Below are positions 8,111 through 36,018 of a stretch of 64,000 bases of DNA, piece after piece. The DNA comes from Candidatus Saccharimonadales bacterium (lineage in GTDB: Bacteria; Patescibacteriota; Saccharimonadia; Saccharimonadales; UBA10212). The notes below the pieces were generated by a model, which did not search any database, had not been told where the DNA came from, and was given only the letters and a program-made list of their open reading frames with translations. The first letter of the stretch is position 1, and the number at the start of each line of letters is the position of its first letter. The stretch covers positions 145,691-209,690 of the forward strand of contig DASTHW010000014.1 in NCBI GenBank assembly GCA_035717985.1. Direction: 5' to 3'. Made by a program: the position numbers and the translations under genes.

Positions 8111-8460
8111 GCAGGCCCAGCCCGACTAGCCTCGGTAAAGCCGCCGAGGAGGCCACCGCCGAATACCTACGCAAAGGTAGTTATGAAATCTTAGAGCTTA
8201 ACTGGCGCCGGCGGACCTGCGAAATTGACGTTATCGCTAAAAAAGACGAGATTATTTACTTTGTTGAAGTGAAATACCGTACGGCCGCTAGCCAAGGTAG
8301 CGGGCTAGACTACATAACGCCAAAAAAGCTTAAGCAGATGCGCTTTGCCGCCAATTTTTGGGTGGCTGAGAATAATTGGCCTGGGGACTACCGGCTAATG
8401 GCGGCCGAGGTGGCGTCTGATAATTTAAAGCCAAAGCTTAGCAAGCTGGTTGAAGTCTAA
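8107..8460 (+). CDS. yraN: YraN-family (UPF0102) endonuclease-like protein
   Basis: 117 aa with the EIDVIAKKDEIIYFVEVKYR core. It overlaps the rnhB stop by 4 nt, which is the usual rnhB-yraN pairing. Confidence 0.85.
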   Translation: MSRPSPTSLGKAAEEATAEYLRKGSYEILELNWRRRTCEIDVIAKKDEIIYFVEVKYRTAASQGSGLDYITPKKLKQMRFAANFWVAENNWPGDYRLMAAEVASDNLKPKLSKLVEV

Positions 8461-8801
8461 ACAAAAAGTTCTTTTAAAAGTTCCGGTGGTCGATTTAGGC
8501 CACTCGCATGAATCTCCAGCTTAAGGCGGTATTCACCCGGGAAGACCAGTCCGGCTGTGTGAATGCGTGTTTGGCTCATAGTCGGCAAGTAGTTTATGCG
8601 GCTAACAGCTTGCTCGGTAACTTTATTTTTTTGAATATATTCTATTTTTGCCGCTAAGATTTTTAGCTCGGCGGTGTTAAGGGTAAAGCGTTTGTTTGGG
8701 CGCCCGGTCCGCCTGCCGGCTACCTCAAGATAGGTTCTGCCGCCGCTAGTTTTAATTTCCGCTGAGTCAGCTTTAAAGCTGGGCTGTCCGGGTTTAGCCA
8801 T
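8457..8801 (-). CDS. hypothetical protein (114 aa)
   Basis: ORF with its own extended -10 (TGCTACAAT on the minus strand at 8808-8816) 6 nt before the ATG. No recognisable domain. Confidence 0.55.
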   Translation of the reverse strand: MAKPGQPSFKADSAEIKTSGGRTYLEVAGRRTGRPNKRFTLNTAELKILAAKIEYIQKNKVTEQAVSRINYLPTMSQTRIHTAGLVFPGEYRLKLEIHASGLNRPPELLKELFV

Positions 8802-11337: not shown

Positions 11338-11377
11338 GGCGAGAACTAAAATTCTATAATTTAAATTGACGCCTGAA

Positions 11378-11404
11378 TTAGCACTCTTGACTTGAGAGTG
11401 CTAA
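11378..11404. promoter_or_regulatory. CIRCE inverted repeat (HrcA operator consensus) upstream of clpC
   Basis: TTAGCACTC-TTGACTTGA-GAGTGCTAA is an exact match to the TTAGCACTC-N9-GAGTGCTAA consensus. It is part of a 30-nt block identical to 35333-35362. Confidence 0.85.
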
Positions 11405-11535
11405 TTCGTGATATCATGAATAGGTACTTTTGACGTTTCAGTTAAAGACCTTACAGCTAGTCTTAAGCACTAAAAATAGAATAAACTCGAATGAGAATTC
11501 TTTAAGTAAATAGAAAGGATTCAAAGTATAAGCCT

Positions 11536-14025
11536 ATGATGCCAAATAGCCCAGATTTTCAAGATTTTTTGAGCCATTTAACCAATAACGCTTTGCATAG
11601 CCTAAAGCACGCTGACGCTATTGCCCGCGCCAGCGGCAGTGCCTATATTGGCACCGAGCATCTACTTTTAGGAATTTTGGCTCAAGAGGGCTCGATGGGC
11701 TCTAAGATTCTTAGCGGCGTAGGCGTAACACTTGACCGGGCCCGTTTGGCGCTGAATCTAACCCCTAAAACCTTAGTTATAAGTATGGGCGCAAAGGGTC
11801 TGTCTGAGACTGCTAAACTGACGCTTAAAATGGCCTGGGAAATTGCCCAGGAATTTAACCAGGACTTCTGTGGTACCGAGCACGTTTTATACAGTATTTT
11901 GAGCCAAAAGAATGCTCGGGCGACTACGCTACTGCGCGATATGAGTGTAGATGTGGATCAATTGTCCAGCGAGGTGGAGCAGTTTTTAAACCGTCAGCAA
12001 TACGAAGAGGAAGGCCGGCTGACCGGCACGGCTGGCCGCGCTAAAGGCGGCAAAAAGACAGCCTTAGAATTTTACGGGACTGATTTAACCGATCTTGCCC
12101 GCCAGGGCAAATTAGACCCGGTGGTGGGCCGTGAAGCCCAGATCCGCCGGCTAATTACCATTCTTAACCGGCGCACCAAAAACAACCCCGTGCTGATTGG
12201 CGAGCCCGGCGTTGGTAAAACGGCCATCGTGGAGGGTATTGCCCAGCGTATTGTCAATGAAGAGGTACCCGACAGTCTGCTGGATAAGCGGATTATTACT
12301 TTAGATCTTGCCGGCATGATAGCCGGTACCAAGTACCGCGGTGAGTTTGAGGAACGTCTGAAAAAAATCCTAGCTGAACTAGAAAAGGATAAAAATATTA
12401 TTGTCTTTATTGACGAGCTTCACCTGATAGTCGGCGCCGGCGCCGCCGAAGGCTCTATGGACGCCGGCAATATGCTTAAACCTTCACTCGCTCGAGGCAA
12501 GATCCGGATGATTGGCGCTACCACTACTGATGAATATTCCAAATACATTGAAAAAGATGCCGCCCTAGAGCGCCGCTTTCAGCCGGTACAGGTGCCGGAA
12601 ACTACACCTAGCGAAACAGTAGCCATTTTGAAAGGCCTACGCAAGCATTACGAGGAATTCCACGGAGTGAAAGTTAGTGACGAAGTGTTATCTGATACTG
12701 TCCAGTTTGCCCGCCGCTATATAAATGACCGCTATATGCCCGATAAAGCCATTGACCTGCTGGACGAGACAGCCGCTTACCTACGCGTCAACAAGGGTAA
12801 AACTCCACCGGAAATGCGGGCTCTGCAAAAAGAGCTAAAGCTGGTTAATACCCGCATTGAAGAAGCCGTAGACAATGAAGATTACGAAAAGGCGGCCCGC
12901 GAAAAACAGCAGGCCAGCCGATTGGGCGAACAAATTAAAGAAATGGAAGCCAAACACCGCACCGGTAAGCCGATTCAGCTGACGTCTGATGATGTAGCCG
13001 AGACCGTAGCCCGGATGACCGGCGTGCCGGTAACTAAAGTGATTAAAAGTGAGGCTAAATATCTGGTTAACCTGGAAAAGAACTTGAGCCGCTATATCAT
13101 CGGCCAGGACGAGGCCGTAGCCACCGTGGCCGGGGCCGTGCGCCGAAGCCGCTCCGGTATTGCCAGTGAAAAGCGTCCGATTGGCTCATTCATATTCCTC
13201 GGCCCAACCGGTGTTGGTAAGACCGAACTGGCTAGAGTTTTAGCCCGTGAGTTTTTTGGTAGTGATAATGCCTTAGTTAAGATCGATATGAGTGAGTTCG
13301 GCGAGCACCACACTGTATCTAGACTAGTTGGCGCTCCGGCCGGTTATGTAGGCTACGATGACGGCGGCCAGCTGACTGATAAAATCCGCCGCCAGCCCTA
13401 TAGCGTGGTGCTGTTTGACGAAATTGAAAAGGCCCACCCTGACGTCTTTAATATGCTCCTGCAAATTCTAGAAGACGGTGTTTTGTCTGACGCTAAGGGC
13501 CGTAAAATTGACTTTACTAATACCATTGTCATCATGACCAGCAACATTGGTGCCGAGAAACTGCAAAAAGAAGCTAACTTTGGCTTTTCTGCTAACAAAG
13601 CCGCTGACCTGAATAACCTGGACGAACTGCATGAGGCCAACAAAGATAAGGTTAATGACGAGCTTAAGAAAATATTGCGCCCAGAACTACTCAACCGGAT
13701 TGATAAAGTCATAGTCTTTAGGGCTCTGACTAAAAAAGACGCTCTAGCTATTTTGGATCTGCAGTTAGACGATTTACGTAATCGCCTAGTCAAAAAGGGC
13801 ATTGGCTTGCAGGTTAGCAAAGCCGCCAAAGAATACCTGCTTGAAGAGGGCTATGACGCTCATAACGGCGCCCGGCCGATGCGGCGTCTGCTCGCCGAAA
13901 CGCTTGAAGATGCTATTGCCGCTGGCCTACTGGACGACAGTTACCACAAGGGTGATGTTGTAACGGTAAGTACCCGGCAAAATAAGGCGCGAAAAGAGCT
14001 GGCTTACAGTTCGCAAGTTGAATAA
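11536..14025 (+). CDS. clpC: ATP-dependent Clp protease ATP-binding subunit ClpC
   Basis: 829 aa with Clp_N repeats, two AAA+ modules ([16 protein letters not shown]), a UVR-like segment ([12 protein letters not shown]) and an xGF loop (NFGF) for ClpP docking. Confidence 0.92.
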
Positions 14026-22989: not shown

Positions 22990-25026
22990 GTGAATTTAGA
23001 TGACCCAGTAACCGAGCTTAAGGGGGTGGGGGACGAGTTAGCGAAAAAGCTAGCTAGCCTTGGCGTGCACGCGGTCGGCGACTTGATTGAGTATTACCCT
23101 AGGCGCTACGAAGATTATTCGCAGGTTTTGCCAATTGAGAAACTGCGCCCCGGCACGGTAACTTTAAAAGCTAAAATCAGCTCCCCTAACGGCCGGTATG
23201 TCCGCCGCGGTCTGCATATAACTGAGGCCATTGCCAGTGACGAAACTGCCAGCGTCCGTTTGGTTTGGTTTAACCAGCCTTACCGGGCTACCGCCATTAA
23301 AAAGGATGAGGATTATTATATTTCGGGCGAGTTTGCACTGCGCCGCGGCCGCTTTAGCCTAACTAACCCATCGGTGGAACTAGTAAGCAGTTTTCCGGTC
23401 AACACGGCCAGAATTATCCCGGTATACCGCGAGACCAAGGGCTTAAAATCGCGTGCCATCAGAAAGCTGGTCCGCGAGGCCATTATAGCCGCCCGCGAAC
23501 TGCCGGAGCATCTGCCAGCCTGGATCTTAGACGAAAATCAGCTGGTGGTTTATGCCCGGGCGGTTAGCGAAATGCACTTTCCTAGCGGTGCCACAGCCCT
23601 AAAAATGGCTCAAAAACGCCTTGGTTTTGAAGAGGTTTTTCAGCTTAGCCTGGCGGCTCTTTTAAATAAGGCAGAGTTTGCCGGTGAGCAGGGCTTGCCA
23701 ATACCTTTTAAGGAGGAACTGGCCCGCGCCTTTACCGCTAAACTGCCTTTTAAACTAACTAATGCCCAGCGCAAAGTTATCTGGCAAATCTATCAGGACT
23801 TAGCCAAATCTCAACCGATGAACAGACTAATCGAAGGGGATGTTGGTAGTGGCAAAACGGTAGTCGCGGCCATGACCGCCCTGATGGCCATGGAACAGGG
23901 GTACCAAGTGGTGCTAATGGCGCCAACTGAAATCTTAGCCCGCCAGCACGCCGAGAGCGTATATAAGCTTTTAGAGCCGGTTGGCTTTGCCGGCCAGGTG
24001 GGGCTTTTGACCGGAAGCCTAAAACCAAAGGCCAAGAAATTGATGCACGAGAAAATCAAAGCCGGCGAGGTACGCTTTATTGTTGGCACTCACGCGCTTA
24101 TATCCGAAAAAGTGGATATGAAAAACTTAGGTCTAATTATTGTCGATGAGCAACACCGTTTTGGTGTTGAGCAGAGAAAGAAGCTACAGGCCAAAGCTGG
24201 TCACATGCCGCACGTTCTGCATTTAACAGCTACGCCAATTCCGCGCAGTCTAGCCCTAACTCTCTACGGCGAGCTAGACATCTCGGTTCTTGATGAACTG
24301 CCGCCGGGCCGCAAGGTTATTGCTACCAAAATTGTGTCACCTAATTCTAAAAAGCAGCTGTACGAGCAGATTGATAAAGAGCTGGCCGCCGGCCGGCAGA
24401 TGTTTGTCGTTTGTCCGCTGATATCCGACACGCAAGTAAGCCAAGGTCTGTCGGCCGAAGAAGTGTTTAAGCAGTTATCCGAGCACGAATTTAAACACCG
24501 CCGGATTGGCCTGCTCCACGGCCAAATGAAGCCAGCCGACAAAGAGCGGGTTATGCAGGATTTTTTGGACAAAAAGTATGATATTTTGGTCAGCACCACG
24601 GTGATTGAGGTAGGTGTTGATGTGCCGAATGCCGCTGTAATGCTGATAATGGGGGCCGAGCGGTTTGGTCTAGCCCAAATTCACCAGCTCCGCGGCCGGG
24701 TAGGCCGCGGTGCACACCGGAGTTACTGCTTTTTGATGATGAGTGACTCTAGTGCACCCAGCCAGCGCCTGCGGGCTCTAGAGACCGTTAATGACGGCTT
24801 TCGTCTTGCTGAAATAGATTTAGAAATGCGCGGCCCCGGTGCCATTTATGGGGTAGTTCAGCACGGCGCGCTAGACCTGCGGGTAGCCAAGCTAACCGAT
24901 ACAAAATTGATTGCCTCTGCCCGCGCTAGCGCTCAGGAATTTATTGATAAAAAAGAAACCCTTAAAAAGTATCCGCACCTGCACGCCAAGGTCACTGCCC
25001 TGCGCGCCATCACCAACCTTAATTGA
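22990..25026 (+). CDS. recG: ATP-dependent DNA helicase RecG
   Basis: 678 aa with a wedge/OB N-terminus and helicase motifs GDVGSGKT, DEQHRFGV and QLRGRVGRG. GTG start. Confidence 0.93.
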   Translation: MNLDDPVTELKGVGDELAKKLASLGVHAVGDLIEYYPRRYEDYSQVLPIEKLRPGTVTLKAKISSPNGRYVRRGLHITEAIASDETASVRLVWFNQPYRATAIKKDEDYYISGEFALRRGRFSLTNPSVELVSSFPVNTARIIPVYRETKGLKSRAIRKLVREAIIAARELPEHLPAWILDENQLVVYARAVSEMHFPSGATALKMAQKRLGFEEVFQLSLAALLNKAEFAGEQGLPIPFKEELARAFTAKLPFKLTNAQRKVIWQIYQDLAKSQPMNRLIEGDVGSGKTVVAAMTALMAMEQGYQVVLMAPTEILARQHAESVYKLLEPVGFAGQVGLLTGSLKPKAKKLMHEKIKAGEVRFIVGTHALISEKVDMKNLGLIIVDEQHRFGVEQRKKLQAKAGHMPHVLHLTATPIPRSLALTLYGELDISVLDELPPGRKVIATKIVSPNSKKQLYEQIDKELAAGRQMFVVCPLISDTQVSQGLSAEEVFKQLSEHEFKHRRIGLLHGQMKPADKERVMQDFLDKKYDILVSTTVIEVGVDVPNAAVMLIMGAERFGLAQIHQLRGRVGRGAHRSYCFLMMSDSSAPSQRLRALETVNDGFRLAEIDLEMRGPGAIYGVVQHGALDLRVAKLTDTKLIASARASAQEFIDKKETLKKYPHLHAKVTALRAITNLN

Positions 25027-25062
25027 TAAAACTAGCAGTTTATTATATAATAGCTATTAATT

Positions 25063-26049
25063 ATGTCAGAACCTGGGCATGAGTCGGGCGGGGCGCCGCC
25101 GAGCGAAAAGTTATTTATGAGGAGCCTAGCCTTAGCCCGGCGCGGGCTTAATTTTGTCAGCCGTCATGCCTACTTTGGCCCTATCAGCGTCCATACCCAG
25201 CATGGCGACCTTTTTGCGGGAGAAGAGGCTCGGCATGAGCTAAGGATTAATACAGAGGCCTTTCTATTTTGGCTTAATGTCAGGGATGACGGCAAGATTA
25301 AGTCTGAGACGTTTGTCTTTGATGAAGATGACGATAAGGGCGGCCTAGCAGATTGGAATATCTATGCTCAGCTGGAAGCCGACGTGTCTGGCTTAAACGA
25401 AATTACCAACCAGCAGGGCCTTGGTTATATAAAGTTCCTAGAGTATTTATATCAGGTAAGCGAGGAAGCTGAGGCGGCCGGAATCAGCCCAAGTCAGCTT
25501 GGCGATTCTTTTTTGGAAGCCGTAGAGGCCACCGCTGAAAATCAAGATGAACCCGATCCTCTGCAGGAGCGGACAGCCGAAAGAATAAAAGAACTCTTAG
25601 AAGAGCTCACCCTCAAACAACCGCCGGAGTCTATGGCCTACATTCAGGGTCTCTTGGCGGATGAAACGCAGAGCGGGTGCCCCCGGCACATTACTATAAG
25701 CGTGCCGCTGTCATCTCCTGATCAACTATTTTCGCTTAGCTATATGGACTATCAAGACGGCCATCCTCACAGCCTTGAGTTTGAGGCATTTAAAGACGGC
25801 ACTATGCTATTTAAATCCGGGCCGACACCCGACCCGGAGCAGAAATGGGAACTGCTTGAAAAGACCCGGAGCGTAGCCGGCAACCGAACAGAGCGACTGT
25901 TAATGATGGGCTATAGACTTGCTCTTGAGGATGACATTCAGAAAGTAGAAGCACTTTTAAACGAGGCAGAAACCGGCGGAATCCACTACGCTGAAACCGG
26001 TATCCAAGGCCTGCAGGCACCAGGTGACTTTCCGCCGCCCGAGAATTGA
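25063..26049 (+). CDS. hypothetical acidic protein (328 aa)
   Basis: Long ORF with a TTGATA-17-TATAAT promoter (25023-25051) 11 nt before the ATG. No recognisable domain. Confidence 0.6.
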   Translation: MSEPGHESGGAPPSEKLFMRSLALARRGLNFVSRHAYFGPISVHTQHGDLFAGEEARHELRINTEAFLFWLNVRDDGKIKSETFVFDEDDDKGGLADWNIYAQLEADVSGLNEITNQQGLGYIKFLEYLYQVSEEAEAAGISPSQLGDSFLEAVEATAENQDEPDPLQERTAERIKELLEELTLKQPPESMAYIQGLLADETQSGCPRHITISVPLSSPDQLFSLSYMDYQDGHPHSLEFEAFKDGTMLFKSGPTPDPEQKWELLEKTRSVAGNRTERLLMMGYRLALEDDIQKVEALLNEAETGGIHYAETGIQGLQAPGDFPPPEN

Positions 26050-26074
26050 CAATTATTAACGCTTATGGTAAAAT
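26046..26074 (+). promoter_or_regulatory. near-consensus sigma70-type promoter driving the high-GC gene
   Basis: TTGACA (26046-26051), a 17-nt spacer, then TAAAAT (26069-26074) preceded by TGg. The -35 box overlaps the TGA stop of the upstream ORF. Confidence 0.55.
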
Positions 26075-26145
26075 ATGTCAGACTCTAGGAGCTGAGTTTG
26101 CGCTCCTCCTGGAGCGTATTTCTCACTCCAGTTGGGAGATTTTAA

Positions 26146-26679
26146 GTGAGCAACCCGACCAATGGCCGTCTCGGTAAGGTCGTGAACGCGCTCGGCTACC
26201 CCTCGTGGGTGCCGGAGGCGCTGACCTGGCTGTTCGTGGGCACCGCGATCAGCGTACAGCTGTACGTGACGTCGTCGGACTACGACATCGTCTCATTCGG
26301 CTCGAAGTCGCTCCAGAACACCGACTCGCTGGGCGTCCAGGTGATCACCTGGCTCCCCGCCGTCGCGTTCGTGGCCGCCTGCGTGCTCTGCACGCTTCGC
26401 CGGGCCGACAAGACGCTGGTGGCGATGGGTTTCGGCCTGCTCGCCTACGGTCTGACGCACGGCTCGGAGGCGATCATCCTGCCCTCGCAGAAGTGGGGGT
26501 GGGGCGTCGCTCTCGCGTTCGCCTGCCTGCTCCTGCCGATGCTCGGCAAGATCGTCTGGTGGACGCTCGCGTTCATCGGCCTCGCCCGGCCGGCGGAGAT
26601 TGTCAAGAACTTCTTCGTTCGCTGGGGCGGCAAGCGCATCGAGAAGGCGAACGCCCGCGTCAGCGCGGCGAACGCGTAG
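26146..26679 (+). CDS. high-GC, probably horizontally acquired 4-TM membrane protein (177 aa)
   Basis: GTG start behind GGGAG. GC is about 60-72% per 60-nt line, against ~50% in the flanks. Nearly every codon ends in G/C. Four hydrophobic helices are visible in the translation. Confidence 0.75.
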   Translation: MSNPTNGRLGKVVNALGYPSWVPEALTWLFVGTAISVQLYVTSSDYDIVSFGSKSLQNTDSLGVQVITWLPAVAFVAACVLCTLRRADKTLVAMGFGLLAYGLTHGSEAIILPSQKWGWGVALAFACLLLPMLGKIVWWTLAFIGLARPAEIVKNFFVRWGGKRIEKANARVSAANA

Positions 26680-26702
26680 GCACTCCCGGCCATGGAGTGG
26701 GA

Positions 26703-26729
26703 AAGAGGCGGTCCTCGCGGCCGCCTCTT
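26703..26729 (+). terminator. GC-rich hairpin closing the high-GC cassette
   Basis: AAGAGGCGG-tcctcgcgg-CCGCCTCTT followed by CTC. The U-tract is poor, so function is inferred. Confidence 0.5.
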
Positions 26730-26749
26730 CTCATAGTTATAATAAGTGT

Positions 26750-27277
26750 ATGAGAGTTATTGCCGGCTCGCTAAAAGGGCGGGAGTTTAAAAGCCCGCGC
26801 GGTGCTAAGACTCACCCCATGAGCGATAAGGTGCGCGGCGCTTTGTTTAATATGCTTGGCGATATCGCCGGCTTGACCTTTTTAGATACTTTTGCTGGTA
26901 GCGGCGCGCTAAGCTTTGAGGCCGTTAGCCGCGGAGCCATCAGCGCCACCGCCATAGACTATGATAAATCAGCTCACCGGGCGCTAGACCAAAACGTCAA
27001 AGAATTAAAATTAACTAACGTCAAAGTTATTCATGCCGGCGCCAGCGGCTGGAGCGAAAATAACCAGGATAAGACATTTGATATTGTCTTGCTGGATCCG
27101 CCGTACGACAATTTGCAGATTAATCTACTCGAAAAACTAGTTGATAGGCACGTTAAGCCCGGCGGCCTAGCGGTACTGTCTCTGGCTGGTAAATTAGACC
27201 CGCCCGAGCTGGGATTAGAAATTGCCGCCCGCAAAAGCTACGGAGACGCTCAGCTAGTTTTCTATCGTAAATCTTAG
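26750..27277 (+). CDS. rsmD: 16S rRNA (guanine966-N2)-methyltransferase RsmD
   Basis: MRVIAGSLKGREFKSPRG...LDPPY. The start is ATG 26750, 6 nt after TATAAT (26738-26743). The ORF-track start at 26600 is an out-of-context extension into the high-GC cassette. Confidence 0.88.
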   Translation: MRVIAGSLKGREFKSPRGAKTHPMSDKVRGALFNMLGDIAGLTFLDTFAGSGALSFEAVSRGAISATAIDYDKSAHRALDQNVKELKLTNVKVIHAGASGWSENNQDKTFDIVLLDPPYDNLQINLLEKLVDRHVKPGGLAVLSLAGKLDPPELGLEIAARKSYGDAQLVFYRKS

Positions 27278-27984
27278 ATTGCTTTGACGGCTTTAATCTG
27301 CAGGTAGCGGATGGCCTGTGCGCAACAGTAAACAACTGAGCCGATAGTGCTTATCACCCCGCCTATAAACGGCACTACCCAGCTGATTACCGCTAGCACT
27401 ATATAGACAGCCGTCATACCCCAGATACTTTTAGAAAAGGGTTTTGAGTCCGCGGCGCTTTTATCTAAAGATTCAAACACCTTGCCGTCCTCGTCTATCA
27501 GGTAAAAAGGTGCCAGCATCCAGCGCCGCCAGATAAACAGCCCCGGCACAATCAGCAGTAAAAAGCCTAGAAAGATAATGAAATTGCGGACTATGTATAG
27601 GCCTAGTACCCGCCAAAAATAGTGCAAACACTGCTTAAAGTTAGCCCGGTAGGTGGTTTTTACGCCCCTGGCGCTTTGGTATTTCAGTAGCGTCATGTAG
27701 GAGCCGTAGAAAATCAGCATGGAGGCAATTGCCAAAATGCCTAAGATTATAGCCAGTATGTTTACAGCCGCCCCGGCCGAGGGTCCGCTATTTTGTAGGG
27801 TGCCGTTAGCTGATTCCTGAAAATGAAAGCCGAAAAATATAATGACTGGGACGATAAGCAGAATAATCGGTGTCAGCCAGCCGGCTACAAAGGGCCACCA
27901 GTTAAGGGCAAATGCCTTGCCGCTAGGGTTAAAAAGATCAAATGCACCAGGCAGTCTGGTGTCGCGGTGATAATCTTTTTCCAT
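27274..27984 (-). CDS. polytopic membrane protein, paralog A
   Basis: 236 aa with multiple TM helices. Its C-terminal half is clearly similar to the 30960-31715 product (IVPGLFIWRRWMLAPFYLID / IIPGLIMLRRYYLAPYVLLD; SKPFS..IWG / SKPYS..IWG). Confidence 0.7.
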   Translation of the reverse strand: MEKDYHRDTRLPGAFDLFNPSGKAFALNWWPFVAGWLTPIILLIVPVIIFFGFHFQESANGTLQNSGPSAGAAVNILAIILGILAIASMLIFYGSYMTLLKYQSARGVKTTYRANFKQCLHYFWRVLGLYIVRNFIIFLGFLLLIVPGLFIWRRWMLAPFYLIDEDGKVFESLDKSAADSKPFSKSIWGMTAVYIVLAVISWVVPFIGGVISTIGSVVYCCAQAIRYLQIKAVKAI

Positions 27985-30349: not shown

Positions 30350-30967
30350 CTAGGCTTTGTCTTTGACGCCGCGTTGGTCGATTCTAAAAACGTGCGGCGC
30401 ATGCCGGTAATCTTCGCGCAGAAGCAGTAGCTCGCAATTACCAAAATGAAAGTGCTTGAGTACCTCGCGCCAGGGCTCGCCGTGGAAACTGGCAAAGATC
30501 ATCTTGCCAATGTCGCCGTGAGTTACTAAAAGCACTTTACCGTCTGCGTGGGCGGCCCGTACCTTATCCAGCACCTTGGCGGCACGTTTGAGCGTAGCCG
30601 GAAAAGACTCGCCGATATCTAAAAAATAATTTACCTTCTCAGTTTGGATTACATTTTTAGAGACTTTTAAAATGTCGCTTGAGGGGTGGCCGGTTAGATT
30701 GCCCAAATCCCGCTCAATGAGTTCCGGCATGATAATTGGCGTCGGCGAGCCGGTAGCGCTGGCAATAATCTCGGCCGTCTGGCGGGCGCGGATAAGCGGC
30801 GAGACGTAAACATGGTCAAACTTAAGGTGGTTATCCTTGGCTAGCTGGGCTACTTCGGTCGCCTGCTGGCGGCCAATTTCAGTTAGCGGCAGGTCGCGGT
30901 GGCCGTTTAAAATTTGTGCCGCGTTATCTTCATTTTGGCCGTGGCGGGCCAGATATATCTCAAGCAT
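30350..30967 (-). CDS. histidine phosphatase family protein (phosphoglycerate mutase-like)
   Basis: 205 aa with the RHG motif (IYLARHGQNEDN) and a second catalytic His region (LLVTHGD). Confidence 0.85.
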   Translation of the reverse strand: MLEIYLARHGQNEDNAAQILNGHRDLPLTEIGRQQATEVAQLAKDNHLKFDHVYVSPLIRARQTAEIIASATGSPTPIIMPELIERDLGNLTGHPSSDILKVSKNVIQTEKVNYFLDIGESFPATLKRAAKVLDKVRAAHADGKVLLVTHGDIGKMIFASFHGEPWREVLKHFHFGNCELLLLREDYRHAPHVFRIDQRGVKDKA

Positions 30968-31715
30968 GGATTTTCTTTAACTCTTGGTAGCGCAGAGCCG
31001 GCGCCACGGTGTAAAGCGAGCCGACAATAAAGGCCGCCAAGCCGCCAATAAGCGGGATAACGTTGAGCAGGCTAATCAAAAACATCACACCAATCACGCC
31101 CCAAATGTAGCCGGAATAAGGCTTAGAAATGCGGGCGCTTTCTTCCATAGCTTCTTTAATGCCGCATTTTTTATCCAGCAGTACATACGGCGCCAGGTAG
31201 TAGCGCCTGAGCATAATCAATCCCGGGATTATCAGCAAAATCAGACCAACCAGTACGTATAGCGTGATTAAGATGTAAAGGCCGACCATTCGCCAGCCCA
31301 GCTCTTCAGCCGTTTGCCACAGCCGGCCAAAGTGGGGCGATTTGCCCTCAGCGCTATCCAGCTGGGCTTGCTGGAGCAAAATCTGTGTAACCACCGAGAT
31401 AACAATCATGATAATGGCCGTCAGGCTCAGGCTTAAGAAGAGCCCCCAACTGTAATTAGGTAATCCCGTACTGAGCCAGCCGCCGCTATGGTTAGTCAGG
31501 TCATAGCGCCAGCGGCCGCCGCCGTGCAGGGTGGAATGGTTAGTCAGCCAAGTGTTGATAATAAATAACAACTGAATAGCCAGCAGGGGCCCAAAAACCC
31601 ACCGATTATCTAAAACTAACTGCTTACTGTTACTAAAAAGTTCAAATGACGGGGTGATGTGCAGGGGGCTACCGCGCCGAGTTTTACGTTTGGTCATCAA
31701 ACCAAATTTTATCAT
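30960..31715 (-). CDS. polytopic membrane protein, paralog B
   Basis: 251 aa, paralogous to the 27274-27984 product. It overlaps the downstream phosphatase gene by 8 nt. Confidence 0.7.
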   Translation of the reverse strand: MIKFGLMTKRKTRRGSPLHITPSFELFSNSKQLVLDNRWVFGPLLAIQLLFIINTWLTNHSTLHGGGRWRYDLTNHSGGWLSTGLPNYSWGLFLSLSLTAIIMIVISVVTQILLQQAQLDSAEGKSPHFGRLWQTAEELGWRMVGLYILITLYVLVGLILLIIPGLIMLRRYYLAPYVLLDKKCGIKEAMEESARISKPYSGYIWGVIGVMFLISLLNVIPLIGGLAAFIVGSLYTVAPALRYQELKKIHA

Positions 31716-33045: not shown

Positions 33046-33360
33046 ATGCCTAGTAGTGAGCTTTCTAGAGTGTTTTGCTATGTCTATGTTTTATACTCTG
33101 AAAAGAGCAATAATTTATATGTCGGTTTCACCCATGATTTGCGGGCTCGATTGGCAAAACACAATAATGGCTTAAATTTTTCTACAAAACCATATCGTCC
33201 CTGGAGCCTTATTTATTATGAGGCGCATACTAAAGAATCTGATGCCAAAAGACGCGAACGATACCTTAAGACAACGGCAGGAGACCGAGCTTTACGAAGA
33301 ATGCTGAGAGAAAAGCTAAATGGAGTTAAAAATTTAAGTCGCCAGAAAGTCTACTACTAG
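33046..33360 (+). CDS. stand-alone GIY-YIG nuclease-domain protein
   Basis: 104 aa with YVYVLYSEKSNNLYVGFTHDLRARLAKHN...YYE....A..RE..LK. GC is visibly lower than in hisS and tig. Confidence 0.85.
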   Translation: MPSSELSRVFCYVYVLYSEKSNNLYVGFTHDLRARLAKHNNGLNFSTKPYRPWSLIYYEAHTKESDAKRRERYLKTTAGDRALRRMLREKLNGVKNLSRQKVYY

Positions 33361-35311: not shown

Positions 35312-35333
35312 GCAGGACGGCTACCGGACCGGA

Positions 35334-35360
35334 TTAGCACTCTTGACTTGAGAGTGCTAA
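35334..35360. promoter_or_regulatory. CIRCE inverted repeat embedded in the clpP promoter
   Basis: TTAGCACTC-TTGACTTGA-GAGTGCTAA. The spacer TTGACT (35343-35348), 17 nt and TACAAT (35366-35371) form a promoter. The ATG at 35380 lies 8 nt after the -10 box. Confidence 0.85.
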
Positions 35361-35379
35361 TTTCATACAATAAATACAT

Positions 35380-36018
35380 ATGGATAGTACCGTTAAACCC
35401 ACTTCGCAGATTTTAGTTCCCACCGTCATTGAGCAAGAGGGCCGCATGGAGCGCGCCTACGATATCTATAGCCGTCTTTTAAAAGACCGGGTTATCTTCC
35501 TGGGCGATGACGTTAATGAGCACACCGCCAATCTAGTGGTTGCCCAAATGCTGTTTTTGGAAAACCAAGATGCCAACAAAGACATTATCCTTTATATCAA
35601 CAGCCCCGGCGGTAGCGTTTATGACGCCATGGCTATTTATGACACCATGCAGTTTGTGAAAAGTGATATCCAGACCGTGGGTATTGGCGTGCAGGCCAGT
35701 GCCGCCGCTTTTCTACTGAGCTCCGGCACTAAAGGTAAAAGGCTGTTACTGCCGCATGCCACCGTAATGATCCATCAGCCCAGCTCCGGCACCCGTGGTA
35801 AAGTAACCGATCAGGAAATCGATCTGCGCGAAGCCCTGCGCGTTAAGAAAATGCTGGAAGAAATTATGGCGCGTAACACCGGTCAGAAGCTGGAAAAAAT
35901 CCATCACGACATGGAGCGTGATTTTTGGATGACTGCGGAAGAAGCTAAGAAGTACGGCTTGGTTGATAAAATTGTCGACAGCCGCAAACTAGCCGACTCC
36001 ATCCCCAAAAAAGCCTAA
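35380..36018 (+). CDS. clpP: ATP-dependent Clp protease proteolytic subunit
   Basis: 212 aa with [30 protein letters not shown]. The catalytic Ser (GVQASAAAF), His (MIHQP) and Asp (ERDFWM) contexts are present. Confidence 0.95.

What the first reader, a model, noticed from the sequence alone, without database searches (positions are those of the whole stretch)
26046..26743. Un-ameliorated high-GC gene cassette (4-TM protein) wedged between native genes behind a consensus native promoter
Seen in the sequence:
- GC jumps exactly at GTG 26146. My counts for three consecutive 60-nt lines are 63%, 60% and 72%, against ~50% in the flanks.
- Reading the frame codon by codon, only about a dozen of ~178 codons end in A/T.
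- The alternative frame gives the R/G/P-rich ghost ORF (26205-26753) typical of very high-GC DNA.
- The anomaly ends at a GC-rich hairpin (26703-26729).
- Both flanks have native composition. Upstream is TTGACA-17-TAAAAT (26046-26074), whose -35 overlaps the stop of the previous ORF. A ~65-nt leader with mutually exclusive short hairpins (AGGAGC/GCTCCT vs CGCTCC/GGAGCG) follows. Downstream is the rsmD -10 box (26738-26743).
- The product has four hydrophobic helices and no domain I recognise.

Inference: this is a recent horizontal acquisition from a high-GC donor such as Actinobacteria. If the genome is Saccharibacteria-like, whose known hosts are Actinobacteria, this would be a host-to-epibiont transfer. 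That would make it a candidate host-interface or immunity factor.
Basis: partly seen in the sequence, partly recalled or inferred. Interest (0 to 1): 0.82.

Follow-up and report, generated by a model that had tools for sequence, protein, structure and literature searches.

The report
Persistently GC-rich gene cassette in Saccharimonadales
A small membrane-protein gene with a base composition very unlike its host genome is real and is an inserted accessory unit, but its only relatives are equally GC-rich copies in other Saccharimonadales, so the odd composition is a lasting property of the gene family rather than proof of a recent jump from an actinobacterial host.

Summary
ORF 26146-26679 (177 aa, four transmembrane helices) has GC 0.67 and GC3 0.94 in a 51% GC window where all other long ORFs have GC3 0.34-0.64. 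An independent assembly is identical across both junctions.

The genome is Saccharimonadales and the gene is an accessory insertion between recG and rsmD. An exhaustive search of 1.84 billion protein representatives found no homolog in any high-GC organism, phage or plasmid. The only five relatives lie in other Saccharimonadales contigs: two in the same slot and three upstream of a Zincin_1 gene. They are 30-48% identical to this protein, and all have GC3 0.86-0.94 and their own AT-rich promoter.

Silent differences within the family are 56% G<->C transversions, against 14-23% in flanking genes. An unrelated ORF with GC3 0.91 fills the same slot in another genome.

Most likely this is a self-contained unit that moves among Saccharimonadales and whose GC3 is actively maintained. 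Repeated capture from unsampled high-GC donors remains a serious rival. The protein's function is unknown.

The parts
26046..26074 (+). Cassette promoter: TTGACA, 17-nt AT-rich spacer, TG-extended -10 TAAAAT (TTATGGTAAAAT). The -35 overlaps the ORF328 stop codon.
   Evidence: Scan gives 11/12 matches plus TG. The 12-nt motif TTATGnTAwwAT occurs once in the window against 0.12 expected. It is present in 5 of 6 family promoters, with 12 other hits in 0.96 Mb of loci.
26075..26145 (+). 5' leader of about 65-70 nt at native GC, containing hairpin 26099-26118 (UGCGCUCC/GGAGCGUA) and the Shine-Dalgarno GGGAG at 26134-26138. The SD region pairs with codons 3-5.
   Evidence: The 80-nt fold has MFE -32.1 kcal/mol and z=-3.84. 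The leader is significantly similar to that of L075 (z=6.3). There is no Rfam match.
26146..26679 (+). GC3-rich ORF (GTG start, 177 aa) encoding a predicted N-in/C-in membrane protein with four TM helices and a basic C-terminal tail. It belongs to an unnamed six-member family.
   Evidence: Composition. Homologs P0002-4, P0006 and P0007. The N-terminus (M-S...LGYPSWVP) aligns with ATG-started homologs. Helices. No family match.
26703..26729 (+). GC-rich hairpin AAGAGGCGGTC-CTCGC-GGCCGCCTCTT. This is the probable terminator and 3' end of the unit. It has no canonical T-run in this copy.
   Evidence: Fold. Not called by the terminator scan. Homologous hairpins sit at the 3' end of L074, L075 and L008 (z=5-11). 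The motif occurs once in the window and is absent from the slot in relatives that carry native-GC genes there.
22990..25026 (+). recG, the conserved left border of the variable slot.
   Evidence: Pfam RecG_wedge, DEAD and Helicase_C. There are 72 related loci.
25063..26049 (+). ORF328: a second, native-GC (GC3 0.52) orphan unit in the same slot with its own promoter at 25023-25051. It is not a conserved partner of the cassette.
   Evidence: No family match. It is a singleton cluster. It is absent from L074, L075 and all relatives.
26750..27277 (+). rsmD (Cons_hypoth95 methyltransferase), the conserved right border of the slot. TATAAT at 26738-26743 lies 6 nt before its ATG.
   Evidence: Pfam E=8e-42. 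Synteny.

Best explanation
SHOWN. The finding is a self-contained, monocistronic expression unit of about 0.7 kb, spanning 26046-26729. It consists of a strong extended -10 promoter, a structured leader that partly occludes the Shine-Dalgarno sequence, a 177-aa gene for a four-helix membrane protein, and a GC-rich hairpin. It is an accessory insertion in a gene-turnover hotspot between the core genes recG and rsmD of a soil Saccharimonadales clade. The protein belongs to a very rare unnamed family. All six known members sit in Saccharimonadales contexts at two different intergenic slots, and related genomes have empty sites.

INFERRED. The unit has long been resident in Saccharimonadales and spreads laterally among them, probably by recombination after DNA uptake. 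Its extreme GC3 (0.86-0.94 in every member) is actively maintained and is not a relic of recent arrival. A/T-ending codons are continually removed, so silent divergence runs mainly through G<->C changes. The force I consider most likely is selection on the transcript or DNA composition itself, for example for a very stable, highly structured, slowly translated mRNA of a dosage-sensitive membrane protein. GC-biased repair or conversion tied to frequent recombination at the hotspot is the alternative. An ancient origin of the ORF in a high-GC organism is possible but not required.

UNKNOWN. The protein's function. From its topology I expect a small inner-membrane scaffold or channel-like accessory protein, not an enzyme.
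For: - Exhaustive phmmer over 1.84 billion representatives gave only three true homologs. A profile search added two more.
- All five lie in 43-53% GC flanks with Saccharimonadales neighbour genes: recG, rsmD and gatD, or Zincin_1, whose best named homologs are all Saccharimonadales.
- All members have GC3 0.86-0.94 and a near-identical third-position signature.
- Most pairs are at chance identity at four-fold sites, for example L074-L075 at 0.30 against 0.38 expected.
- 190 of 339 silent differences (56%) are G<->C transversions, against 14-23% in recG and gatD.
- A family HMM finds no normal-GC member in 0.94 Mb of related loci.
- AT-rich promoters accompany every member. The window and L075 leaders are homologous (z=6.3). 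The 3' hairpin regions are homologous within the slot.
- Empty-site versus occupied-site comparison shows that the insert carries its own promoter.
- Carriers are interleaved with non-carriers in one RecG clade.
- The codon choice is G/C-ending in general. It is neither native-optimal nor rare-codon usage.
- The mRNAs fold more stably than synonymous shuffles: mean z=-2.0 against -0.84 for 14 native genes, p=0.019.
Against: - No precedent is known to me for selection holding one small gene at GC3 0.9 in a 50% GC genome.
- An unrelated ORF with GC3 0.91 occupies the same slot in L008, and pyrF/pyrE-like genes with GC3 0.76-0.82 lie nearby. Influx from high-GC donors explains this more simply than a family-specific selection does.
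- The window copy keeps significant synonymous similarity to L074 and L075 (excess 0.31-0.34, p about 0.001), while the flanking recG and gatD are saturated. This could mean the cassette is younger than its flanks.
- The mRNA-structure excess is weak, and the family members are not independent.
- Promoter sharing may be convergence on the known TRTG -16 strong-promoter class.
- Only six members exist, most on contigs of 1-4 kb.
Confidence: 0.5

Rival explanations
1. The recG|rsmD and 165aa|Zincin_1 intergenic sites are hotspots that repeatedly capture short-lived genes from unsampled high-GC donors, such as actinobacterial hosts or their mobile elements. Each of the six family members and the L008 ORF would then be a separate, recent, not yet ameliorated acquisition. 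The family's divergence would have happened inside high-GC genomes.
For: - The codon signature is the classic GC3>GC1>GC2 pattern of genes that evolved under GC mutation pressure, and amino acid use is slightly GC-shifted.
- G<->C-dominated silent divergence is what evolution in a high-GC genome would give.
- An unrelated GC3 0.91 ORF sits in the same slot, and GC3-rich pyrF/pyrE lie nearby in L008.
- Distribution is patchy, with empty sites in relatives.
- The window cassette looks younger at silent sites than its flanks.
Against: - There are zero homologs in high-GC organisms among about 15 billion proteins, in IMG/VR, or in INPHARED phages and PLSDB plasmids. Six copies were recovered from the much rarer Saccharimonadales.
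- The same two slots are used three times each.
- AT-rich Saccharimonadales-type promoters and leaders belong to the inserted unit and are homologous between members.
- Published analysis of TM7x found no strong signal of transfer from its Actinomyces host (PMC7427843).
Confidence: 0.28
2. A mechanistic variant nested within the best explanation. The unit is resident in Saccharimonadales, and its GC3 is driven by GC-biased gene conversion or repair, because the hotspot recombines very often. There is no selection on the transcript.
For: - The slot is hypervariable and plausibly recombines often.
- Bacterial genes with more recombination have higher GC3 (Lassalle et al. 2015, PMC4450053, listed; the statement is from my own knowledge of that paper).
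- Two unrelated ORFs in the slot are both GC3-rich.
Against: - The GC step coincides with the coding region. The promoter and leader inside the same unit, the native-GC ORF328 in the same slot (GC3 0.52) and the small ORF in L074 are unaffected.
- Reported bacterial gBGC effects are far smaller than a shift from 0.55 to 0.94 (my own knowledge).
Confidence: 0.15
3. Assembly or binning artefact: a fragment of a high-GC organism was joined chimerically into a Saccharimonadales contig.
For: The compositional boundaries are sharp.
Against: - An independent Logan assembly is 100% identical over 19,217 bp spanning both junctions.
- The same promoter-leader-ORF-hairpin layout between the same flanking genes recurs in assemblies from five other samples.
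- The boundaries coincide with functional signals: promoter, Shine-Dalgarno sequence and hairpin.
Confidence: 0.02
4. The GC-rich segment is not a protein gene in the annotated frame. It would instead be a structured RNA, or a gene in the +3 or antisense ghost frame.
For: - The +3 and -1 frames are open in all members.
- The mRNAs are unusually stable.
Against: - GC is phase-specific: 0.60/0.48/0.94.
- Conservation is at the protein level, with 22 invariant residues and conserved TM helices across 30-48% identity.
- All members share the conserved M-S start and a Shine-Dalgarno sequence.
- Open alternative frames are the generic consequence of high GC3, and the unrelated L008 ORF shows them too.
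- There is no Rfam match.
Confidence: 0.02

Closest known systems
Chromosomal HGT hotspots between conserved core genes (concept of Oliveira, Touchon, Cury and Rocha 2017; cited from my own knowledge)
   Same: A short interval between two conserved core genes (recG and rsmD) holds different, unrelated accessory genes in related genomes. It is empty in some. No integrase or transposase lies within +/-10 kb.
   Different: Each occupant is a single self-promoted gene. Two unrelated occupants share an extreme GC3 and a similar 3' hairpin. One family also occurs at a second slot.
Compositionally atypical island read as recent HGT, with amelioration over time (Lawrence and Ochman model; cited from my own knowledge)
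   Same: GC, GC3 and codon usage are atypical relative to the host genome. The gene is absent from close relatives.
   Different: No donor-lineage homolog exists. Members have diverged to silent-site saturation without any amelioration. The promoter inside the unit has host-like composition.
Integron gene cassettes
   Same: A short single-ORF module ends in a GC-rich imperfect palindrome. Occupants of one site are interchangeable, and composition often differs from the host.
   Different: The unit carries its own promoter. The hairpin lacks attC core sites (no GTTRRRY/RYYYAAC). There is no intI within +/-10 kb, no cassette array, and no direct repeats at the junctions.
GC-biased gene conversion raising GC3 in recombining bacterial genes (Lassalle et al. 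2015, PMC4450053)
   Same: GC3 is elevated at a locus that probably recombines often. Silent changes are biased towards G/C.
   Different: The magnitude is far larger. The effect is confined to the ORF, and adjacent non-coding parts and the neighbouring ORF328 are spared.

Membership tests
Recent horizontally acquired, un-ameliorated island | Base composition and codon usage atypical for the host genome | tested here: met
   GC3 is 0.94 against native 0.554 +/- 0.038 (z=10.1). Codon-usage distance is at z=5.9.
Recent horizontally acquired, un-ameliorated island | Absent from close relatives at the syntenic site | tested here: met
   None of the 25 close GTDB relatives that keep recG->rsmD carries a homolog of this gene. 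One of them, L008, holds an unrelated GC-rich ORF in the slot. The sister genome L002 has no GC-rich cassette.
Recent horizontally acquired, un-ameliorated island | Homologs in a donor lineage whose composition matches the island | tested here: not met
   The exhaustive phmmer search, profile search, metagenome, viral, phage and plasmid scans returned only Saccharimonadales-context copies.
Recent horizontally acquired, un-ameliorated island | Recency: other recipients carry near-identical copies, or older copies show amelioration | tested here: not met
   Copies are 30-48% identical in protein, and silent sites are at or near saturation. Even so, GC3 is 0.86-0.94 in all six.
HGT hotspot between core genes | Conserved flanking core genes with variable, unrelated content among relatives | tested here: met
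   In the recG-rsmD slot the gap runs from 3 to 921 bp, against 1,724 bp in the window. Occupants of 161, 195, 236, 267 and about 273 aa, as well as GC-rich units, are found.
HGT hotspot between core genes | No mobility genes required in the interval | tested here: met
   No integrase or transposase Pfam hit on any gene within 10 kb on either side.
Integron gene cassette | attC recombination site with conserved core sites at the 3' end | tested here: not met
   The hairpin is GGCGGyC...GrCCGCC, with no GTTRRRY or RYYYAAC at its borders.
Integron gene cassette | Promoterless ORF expressed from Pc, with intI adjacent | tested here: not met
   The unit has its own 11/12 consensus promoter. No integrase lies within +/-10 kb.
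Transposable element or MITE | Terminal inverted repeats and target-site duplication | tested here: not met
   The empty and occupied junctions show neither. No repeat of the cassette occurs in the window.
Rho-independent terminator (for hairpin 26703-26729) | GC-rich stem-loop followed by a U-run | tested here: inconclusive
   The stem is strong, but the tail is CTCATAG and the scan did not call it. The homologous hairpin in L074 has TTTTTT.
Known protein families (Pfam, NCBIfam, PHROGs, PADLOC, PDB) | Significant profile match | tested here: not met
   No hit at E<=0.1. The best permissive hits have E of 0.01-0.24 to unrelated TM families.
   The unit is monocistronic. ORF328 is absent from L074 and L075. 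Neighbours differ between the two slots. The interaction itself cannot be tested here.

The most novel reading that the evidence does not exclude
Soil Saccharimonadales carry a class of self-promoted, interchangeable single-gene units for membrane or secreted proteins. Their coding regions are held at actinobacterial-like codon composition by selection because the gene or its mRNA is exchanged with, or acts in, the high-GC host cell. The composition would then be a functional host-matching trait and not a record of ancestry.
Probability: 0.07. Interest if true: 0.9.

Novelty: new variant of a known kind. Interest (0 to 1): 0.6.

Why it matters
Atypical GC is routinely read as a sign of recent horizontal transfer. 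Here, the same extreme GC3 persists across a family that has diverged to silent-site saturation inside genomes of about 50% GC. It is linked to host-type promoters, and no donor is visible in 15 billion proteins.

There are two ways to read this. One is that a hidden high-GC gene pool, plausibly the hosts' mobilome, continually feeds specific hotspots in these epibionts. That would give a direct handle on host-epibiont gene flow. The other is that an unrecognised force, either selection on transcript composition or strong local biased conversion, can hold a single gene far from genomic equilibrium. That would undermine composition-based dating of transfers.

The work also defines a new protein family and two insertion hotspots in a poorly understood lineage.

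Tried and rejected
- Protein identification: Pfam, PHROGs, PADLOC, NCBIfam and a PDB profile search gave no hits. The AlphaFold2 model from the 6-sequence alignment had pLDDT 55 and pTM 0.36, so I ran no fold search because the matches would be meaningless.
- Leader RNA: Rfam found nothing for the leader or the unit. A Ysr141 hit inside recG of L075 is far below the gathering score.
- Mobile-element sources: viral contigs, phages and plasmids held no homolog of the family or of the L008 ORF.
- False positive: P0005, a 1,426-aa eukaryote-like Ig-repeat protein with E=2e-6, was treated as spurious.
- Native codon optimisation: rejected. Highly expressed native genes avoid CTC, GCG, TCG and ACG, which this ORF prefers.
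- Rare-codon throttling: rejected. The ORF also uses the commonest native codons (GGC, GCC, CCG, ACC, CGC) and avoids rare A-ending ones.
- Amino acid composition as the cause: rejected. GARP and FYMINK are only mildly shifted.
- DGR or other repeat-templated diversification: no repeat of the region exists in the window.
- Target-site duplications or terminal inverted repeats: none at the junctions.
- Integron attC: not present.
- Ameliorated homologs among slot ORFs of relatives: none found by phmmer or HMM.
- The AATTGAyA repeat at the recG and ORF328 stops is too short to interpret.
- ORF silent sites evolving faster than adjacent non-coding DNA: not supported.
- Literature searches found no description of this family or phenomenon.
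Full report
**1. Observation.** ORF 26146-26679 (+, GTG start, 177 aa) has GC 0.670 and GC1/GC2/GC3 of 0.60/0.48/0.94. Only 11 of 178 codons end in A/T. The window is 0.510 GC. Among all 534-nt windows (mean 0.511, sd 0.035) the maximum lies on this ORF. Forty-seven native ORFs have GC3 of 0.554 +/- 0.038 with a maximum of 0.645, which puts this gene at z=10.1. Its codon-usage distance is at z=5.9. The GC step starts within about 15 nt of the start codon and ends right after the hairpin at 26703-26729. The promoter TTGACA-17-TAAAAT (26046-26074) matches 11/12 and has a TG extended -10. Its -35 overlaps the stop of ORF328. The leader folds into a strong hairpin at 26099-26118, and the Shine-Dalgarno region is partly paired. 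The R/G/P-rich ghost ORF exists but is the generic open +3 frame of any high-GC3 gene.

**2. Not an artefact; identity of the genome.** The protein is annotated in NCBI as a hypothetical protein of a Candidatus Saccharimonadales MAG. An independent Logan assembly of run SRR25158356 contains the gene on a 22.6-kb contig that is 100% identical to the window over 19,217 bp, spanning both junctions. The context is murT/gatD - recG - ORF328 - ORF177 - rsmD - UPF0259.

**3. Homologs.** The word-index search found only the protein itself. The exhaustive phmmer search of 1.84 billion representatives found three true relatives, P0002-P0004 at 42-48% identity, plus one spurious eukaryote-like Ig-repeat protein. 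A profile search added P0006 and P0007. The metagenome scan re-found two of these. No member occurs on viral contigs, phages or plasmids. Every member is a singleton on one contig.
- P0002 (L074) lies between a recG 3' end and an rsmD start.
- P0003 (L075) lies between gatD-recG and rsmD.
- P0004, P0006 and P0007 (L076, L079, L080) lie upstream of a Zincin_1 gene. That gene's best named homologs are all Saccharimonadales or Saccharibacteria.

All six genes have GC 0.63-0.69 and GC3 0.86-0.94 in flanks of 0.43-0.53 GC. Their third-position signature is almost identical: A3 0.01-0.05, C3 0.48-0.54, G3 0.35-0.45, T3 0.04-0.09. A family HMM finds no normal-GC member among all ORFs of 0.94 Mb of related loci.

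**4. Is the composition a sign of recent arrival?** At four-fold sites under identical amino acids, third-position identity is at chance for most pairs. For example, L074-L075 is 0.30 against 0.38 expected, and all comparisons between the two context groups are non-significant. Of 339 silent differences, 190 (56%) are G<->C transversions, against 14-23% in recG and gatD of the same genomes. The family therefore diverged for a long time under a regime that disfavours A/T at silent sites. Neutral evolution in a genome with GC3 near 0.55 would have produced mostly transitions to A/T and pulled GC3 well below 0.8.

One complication remains. The window copy keeps significant silent similarity to L074 and L075 (excess 0.31-0.34, p about 0.001), although recG and gatD between the window and L075 are saturated (excess 0.06-0.08, not significant). 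Either the cassette is younger than its flanks, which would mean lateral spread, or restricting silent changes to rare G<->C transversions slows saturation.

**5. What kind of codon bias is it?** It is not native translational optimisation. The ORF favours CTC (0.50 against native 0.05 and highly expressed 0.04), GCG (0.59 against 0.11), TCG (0.67 against 0.13), ACG (0.50 against 0.15) and TTC (1.00 against 0.22). It is not rare-codon enrichment either. It also uses the commonest native codons where these end in G/C, and avoids rare A-ending codons. Amino acid composition is only mildly GC-shifted. The bias is therefore nucleotide-level G/C pressure at silent sites. The mRNAs fold more stably than synonymous-codon shuffles: seven GC-rich ORFs have z from -0.8 to -4.0 (mean -2.0), against mean -0.84 for 14 native genes (Mann-Whitney p=0.019). 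This is suggestive but weak.

**6. The slot.** Twenty-five close relatives keep recG->rsmD, and the gap ranges from 3 to 921 bp. Outside one clade the slot holds a conserved native-GC ORF of about 273 aa. Inside the clade that contains the window it is hypervariable. It may be empty, hold unrelated ORFs of 161, 195, 236 or 267 aa, or hold a GC-rich unit. Carriers are interleaved with non-carriers; the window's sister L002 has no cassette.

L008, a 669-kb chromosome at 47% GC and the sister of L075, is striking. In the same slot it has an unrelated 129-aa ORF with a signal-peptide-like N-terminus and GC3 0.91 (hhalign probability 0.15%). This ORF sits in the same layout of promoter directly after the recG stop, leader of about 85 nt, ORF, and hairpin GGGGGCGGTCC...GGGCCGCCCC. 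The 3' hairpin regions of the window, L074, L075 and L008 are mutually similar (z=5-11). Among the close relatives (L002-L027), the hairpin motif is found only in these four slots. L008 also has pyrF- and pyrE-like genes with GC3 0.82 and 0.76.

**7. Empty and occupied sites at the second slot.** Five relatives, with Zincin_1 72-78% identical to that of L080, have an empty site. It consists of a divergent 165-aa gene, a conserved intergenic element ending in a terminator, and then GATAAACTTTAAG..ATG of Zincin_1. In L076, L079 and L080 the insertion lies exactly between the terminator T-run and GATArACTTT. It comprises a spacer of 45-130 nt, an AT-rich extended -10 promoter, the leader, the GC-rich ORF and two hairpins. 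There are no target-site duplications and no terminal inverted repeats. The promoter therefore travels with the unit.

The motif TTATGnTAwwAT is present in 5 of 6 family promoters. It occurs once in the window (0.12 expected) and 12 times elsewhere in 0.96 Mb of loci. Because it matches the known TRTG -16 strong-promoter class (my own knowledge), this sharing could be homology or convergence. Leader homology is significant for window-L075 (z=6.3) and weaker across the two groups (L075-L079 z=4.0).

**8. The protein.** The AlphaFold2 model is of low confidence (pLDDT 55). It agrees with hydropathy on four TM helices at about 21-42, 61-85, 88-105 and 115-137. There is a cytoplasmic RRADK loop and a basic C-terminal tail, which gives an N-in/C-in topology by the positive-inside rule. 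Invariant residues cluster in TM2 (W69, P71, F75, A78, C82, L84) and TM4 (W117, W119, G120, V121, L123, A124). No catalytic motif is visible. ORF328 is a singleton orphan, is not linked to the family elsewhere, and gives no functional clue.

**9. Explanations.**
- I favour (0.5) a resident, laterally mobile Saccharimonadales unit whose GC3 is actively maintained. The supporting points are the complete absence of donors, the repeated use of two slots, the host-type promoters and leaders that belong to the unit, and saturation without amelioration. The maintaining force is inferred, not shown. Selection on transcript composition or structure is my first choice, and GC-biased conversion at a recombination hotspot (0.15, nested within the 0.5) is the alternative. 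The conversion idea fits poorly with the sparing of the leader and of ORF328.
- The main rival (0.28) is repeated capture from unsampled high-GC donors with rapid turnover. It explains the unrelated L008 ORF and pyrFE most simply, and it fits the classic codon signature. It has to assume that the donors escaped a 15-billion-protein collection in which six copies from the much rarer recipients were caught.
- An artefact and a non-coding reading are each at about 0.02.

**10. Comparison with known systems.** The locus behaves like a chromosomal HGT hotspot between core genes. It fails two of the four defining tests of a recent un-ameliorated island: donor homologs and recency. It is not an integron cassette, because it has its own promoter, no attC core sites and no intI. 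It is not a transposon or MITE. McLean et al. 2020 (PMC7427843) reported no strong signal of transfer from Actinomyces to TM7x and a phylum GC range of 32-51%. That makes a 67% GC gene family within the phylum notable.

**11. Verdict.** The finding is more interesting as a persistent compositional anomaly in a mobile, self-promoted unit than as a single recent transfer. The protein family is new, and its function is unknown.

Noticed in passing
L008:8040-8590 (OZ246413.1, Ca. Saccharibacteria chromosome): An unrelated 129-aa ORF (8154-8543) with a signal-peptide-like N-terminus, four Cys and GC3 0.91 occupies the same recG->rsmD slot in a 47% GC genome. It has the same promoter-leader-ORF-hairpin layout as the window cassette. 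No Pfam, phage or plasmid match was found, and the exact sequence is not in the protein collection.
   Followed up: partly
L008:12203-13869: pyrF-like (OMPdecase, GC3 0.82) and pyrE-like (Pribosyltran, GC3 0.76) genes form a 60% GC block in a 47% GC genome. They are likely imports from a high-GC lineage. I could not run a donor phylogeny.
   Followed up: partly
window 11377-11406 and 35333-35362: A perfect 30-nt palindrome, ATTAGCACTCTTGACTTGAGAGTGCTAATT, occurs twice. It matches the CIRCE/HrcA operator consensus TTAGCACTC-N9-GAGTGCTAA (my own knowledge). It sits upstream of a Clp ATPase gene (11536-14025) and clpP (35380-36018), not upstream of groESL or dnaK.
   Followed up: partly
window 33046-33360: A small GIY-YIG nuclease ORF (104 aa) with unusually low GC3 (0.34) lies between the hisS-like and trigger-factor genes. 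It is probably a separate AT-rich insertion of the homing-endonuclease type.
   Followed up: partly
L086:1575-1770; also L081:917-1145, L083:1931-2090, L084:1133-1328, L076:38-205: A conserved unannotated intergenic element of about 150-200 nt lies upstream of Zincin_1. Its conserved blocks are GACCGTTTGTAAAATCAC, GTGAGAATT, TAACAGAGC and GAGGGGTTTTGGGGAAGAGGAG, and it ends in an intrinsic terminator. There is no Rfam match, and RNAalifold gives only a weak consensus. It could be a small RNA. The cassette inserts immediately after it.
   Followed up: partly
window 26738-26750; also L011 and L004 upstream of rsmD: The -10 box TATAAT lies only 6 nt before the rsmD ATG, with no Shine-Dalgarno sequence. 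A similar arrangement is seen in relatives. This suggests that rsmD is translated from a leaderless mRNA.
   Followed up: no
window 25023-26051: ORF328 (25063-26049) is a native-GC, acidic singleton orphan with its own promoter at 25023-25051. Both the recG stop and the ORF328 stop are embedded in AATTGAyA, where the stop codon overlaps a -35 box. The units look stacked head-to-tail.
   Followed up: partly
window 27274-27984 and 30960-31715 (both on the - strand): Two paralogous UPF0259/DUF975-like membrane proteins lie 3 kb apart, and homologs recur near rsmD in many relatives.
   Followed up: no
L039:348-689 (- strand): A 113-aa ORF has GC3 0.85 in a 44% GC locus of a distant relative. It could be another GC-rich island or a ghost frame.
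   Followed up: no
L075:2066-2336 (- strand): An Rfam Ysr141 match (59.6 bits, E=3e-14, gathering score 196) lies inside the recG coding sequence. It is probably a spurious similarity to a model built on coding sequence.
   Followed up: no
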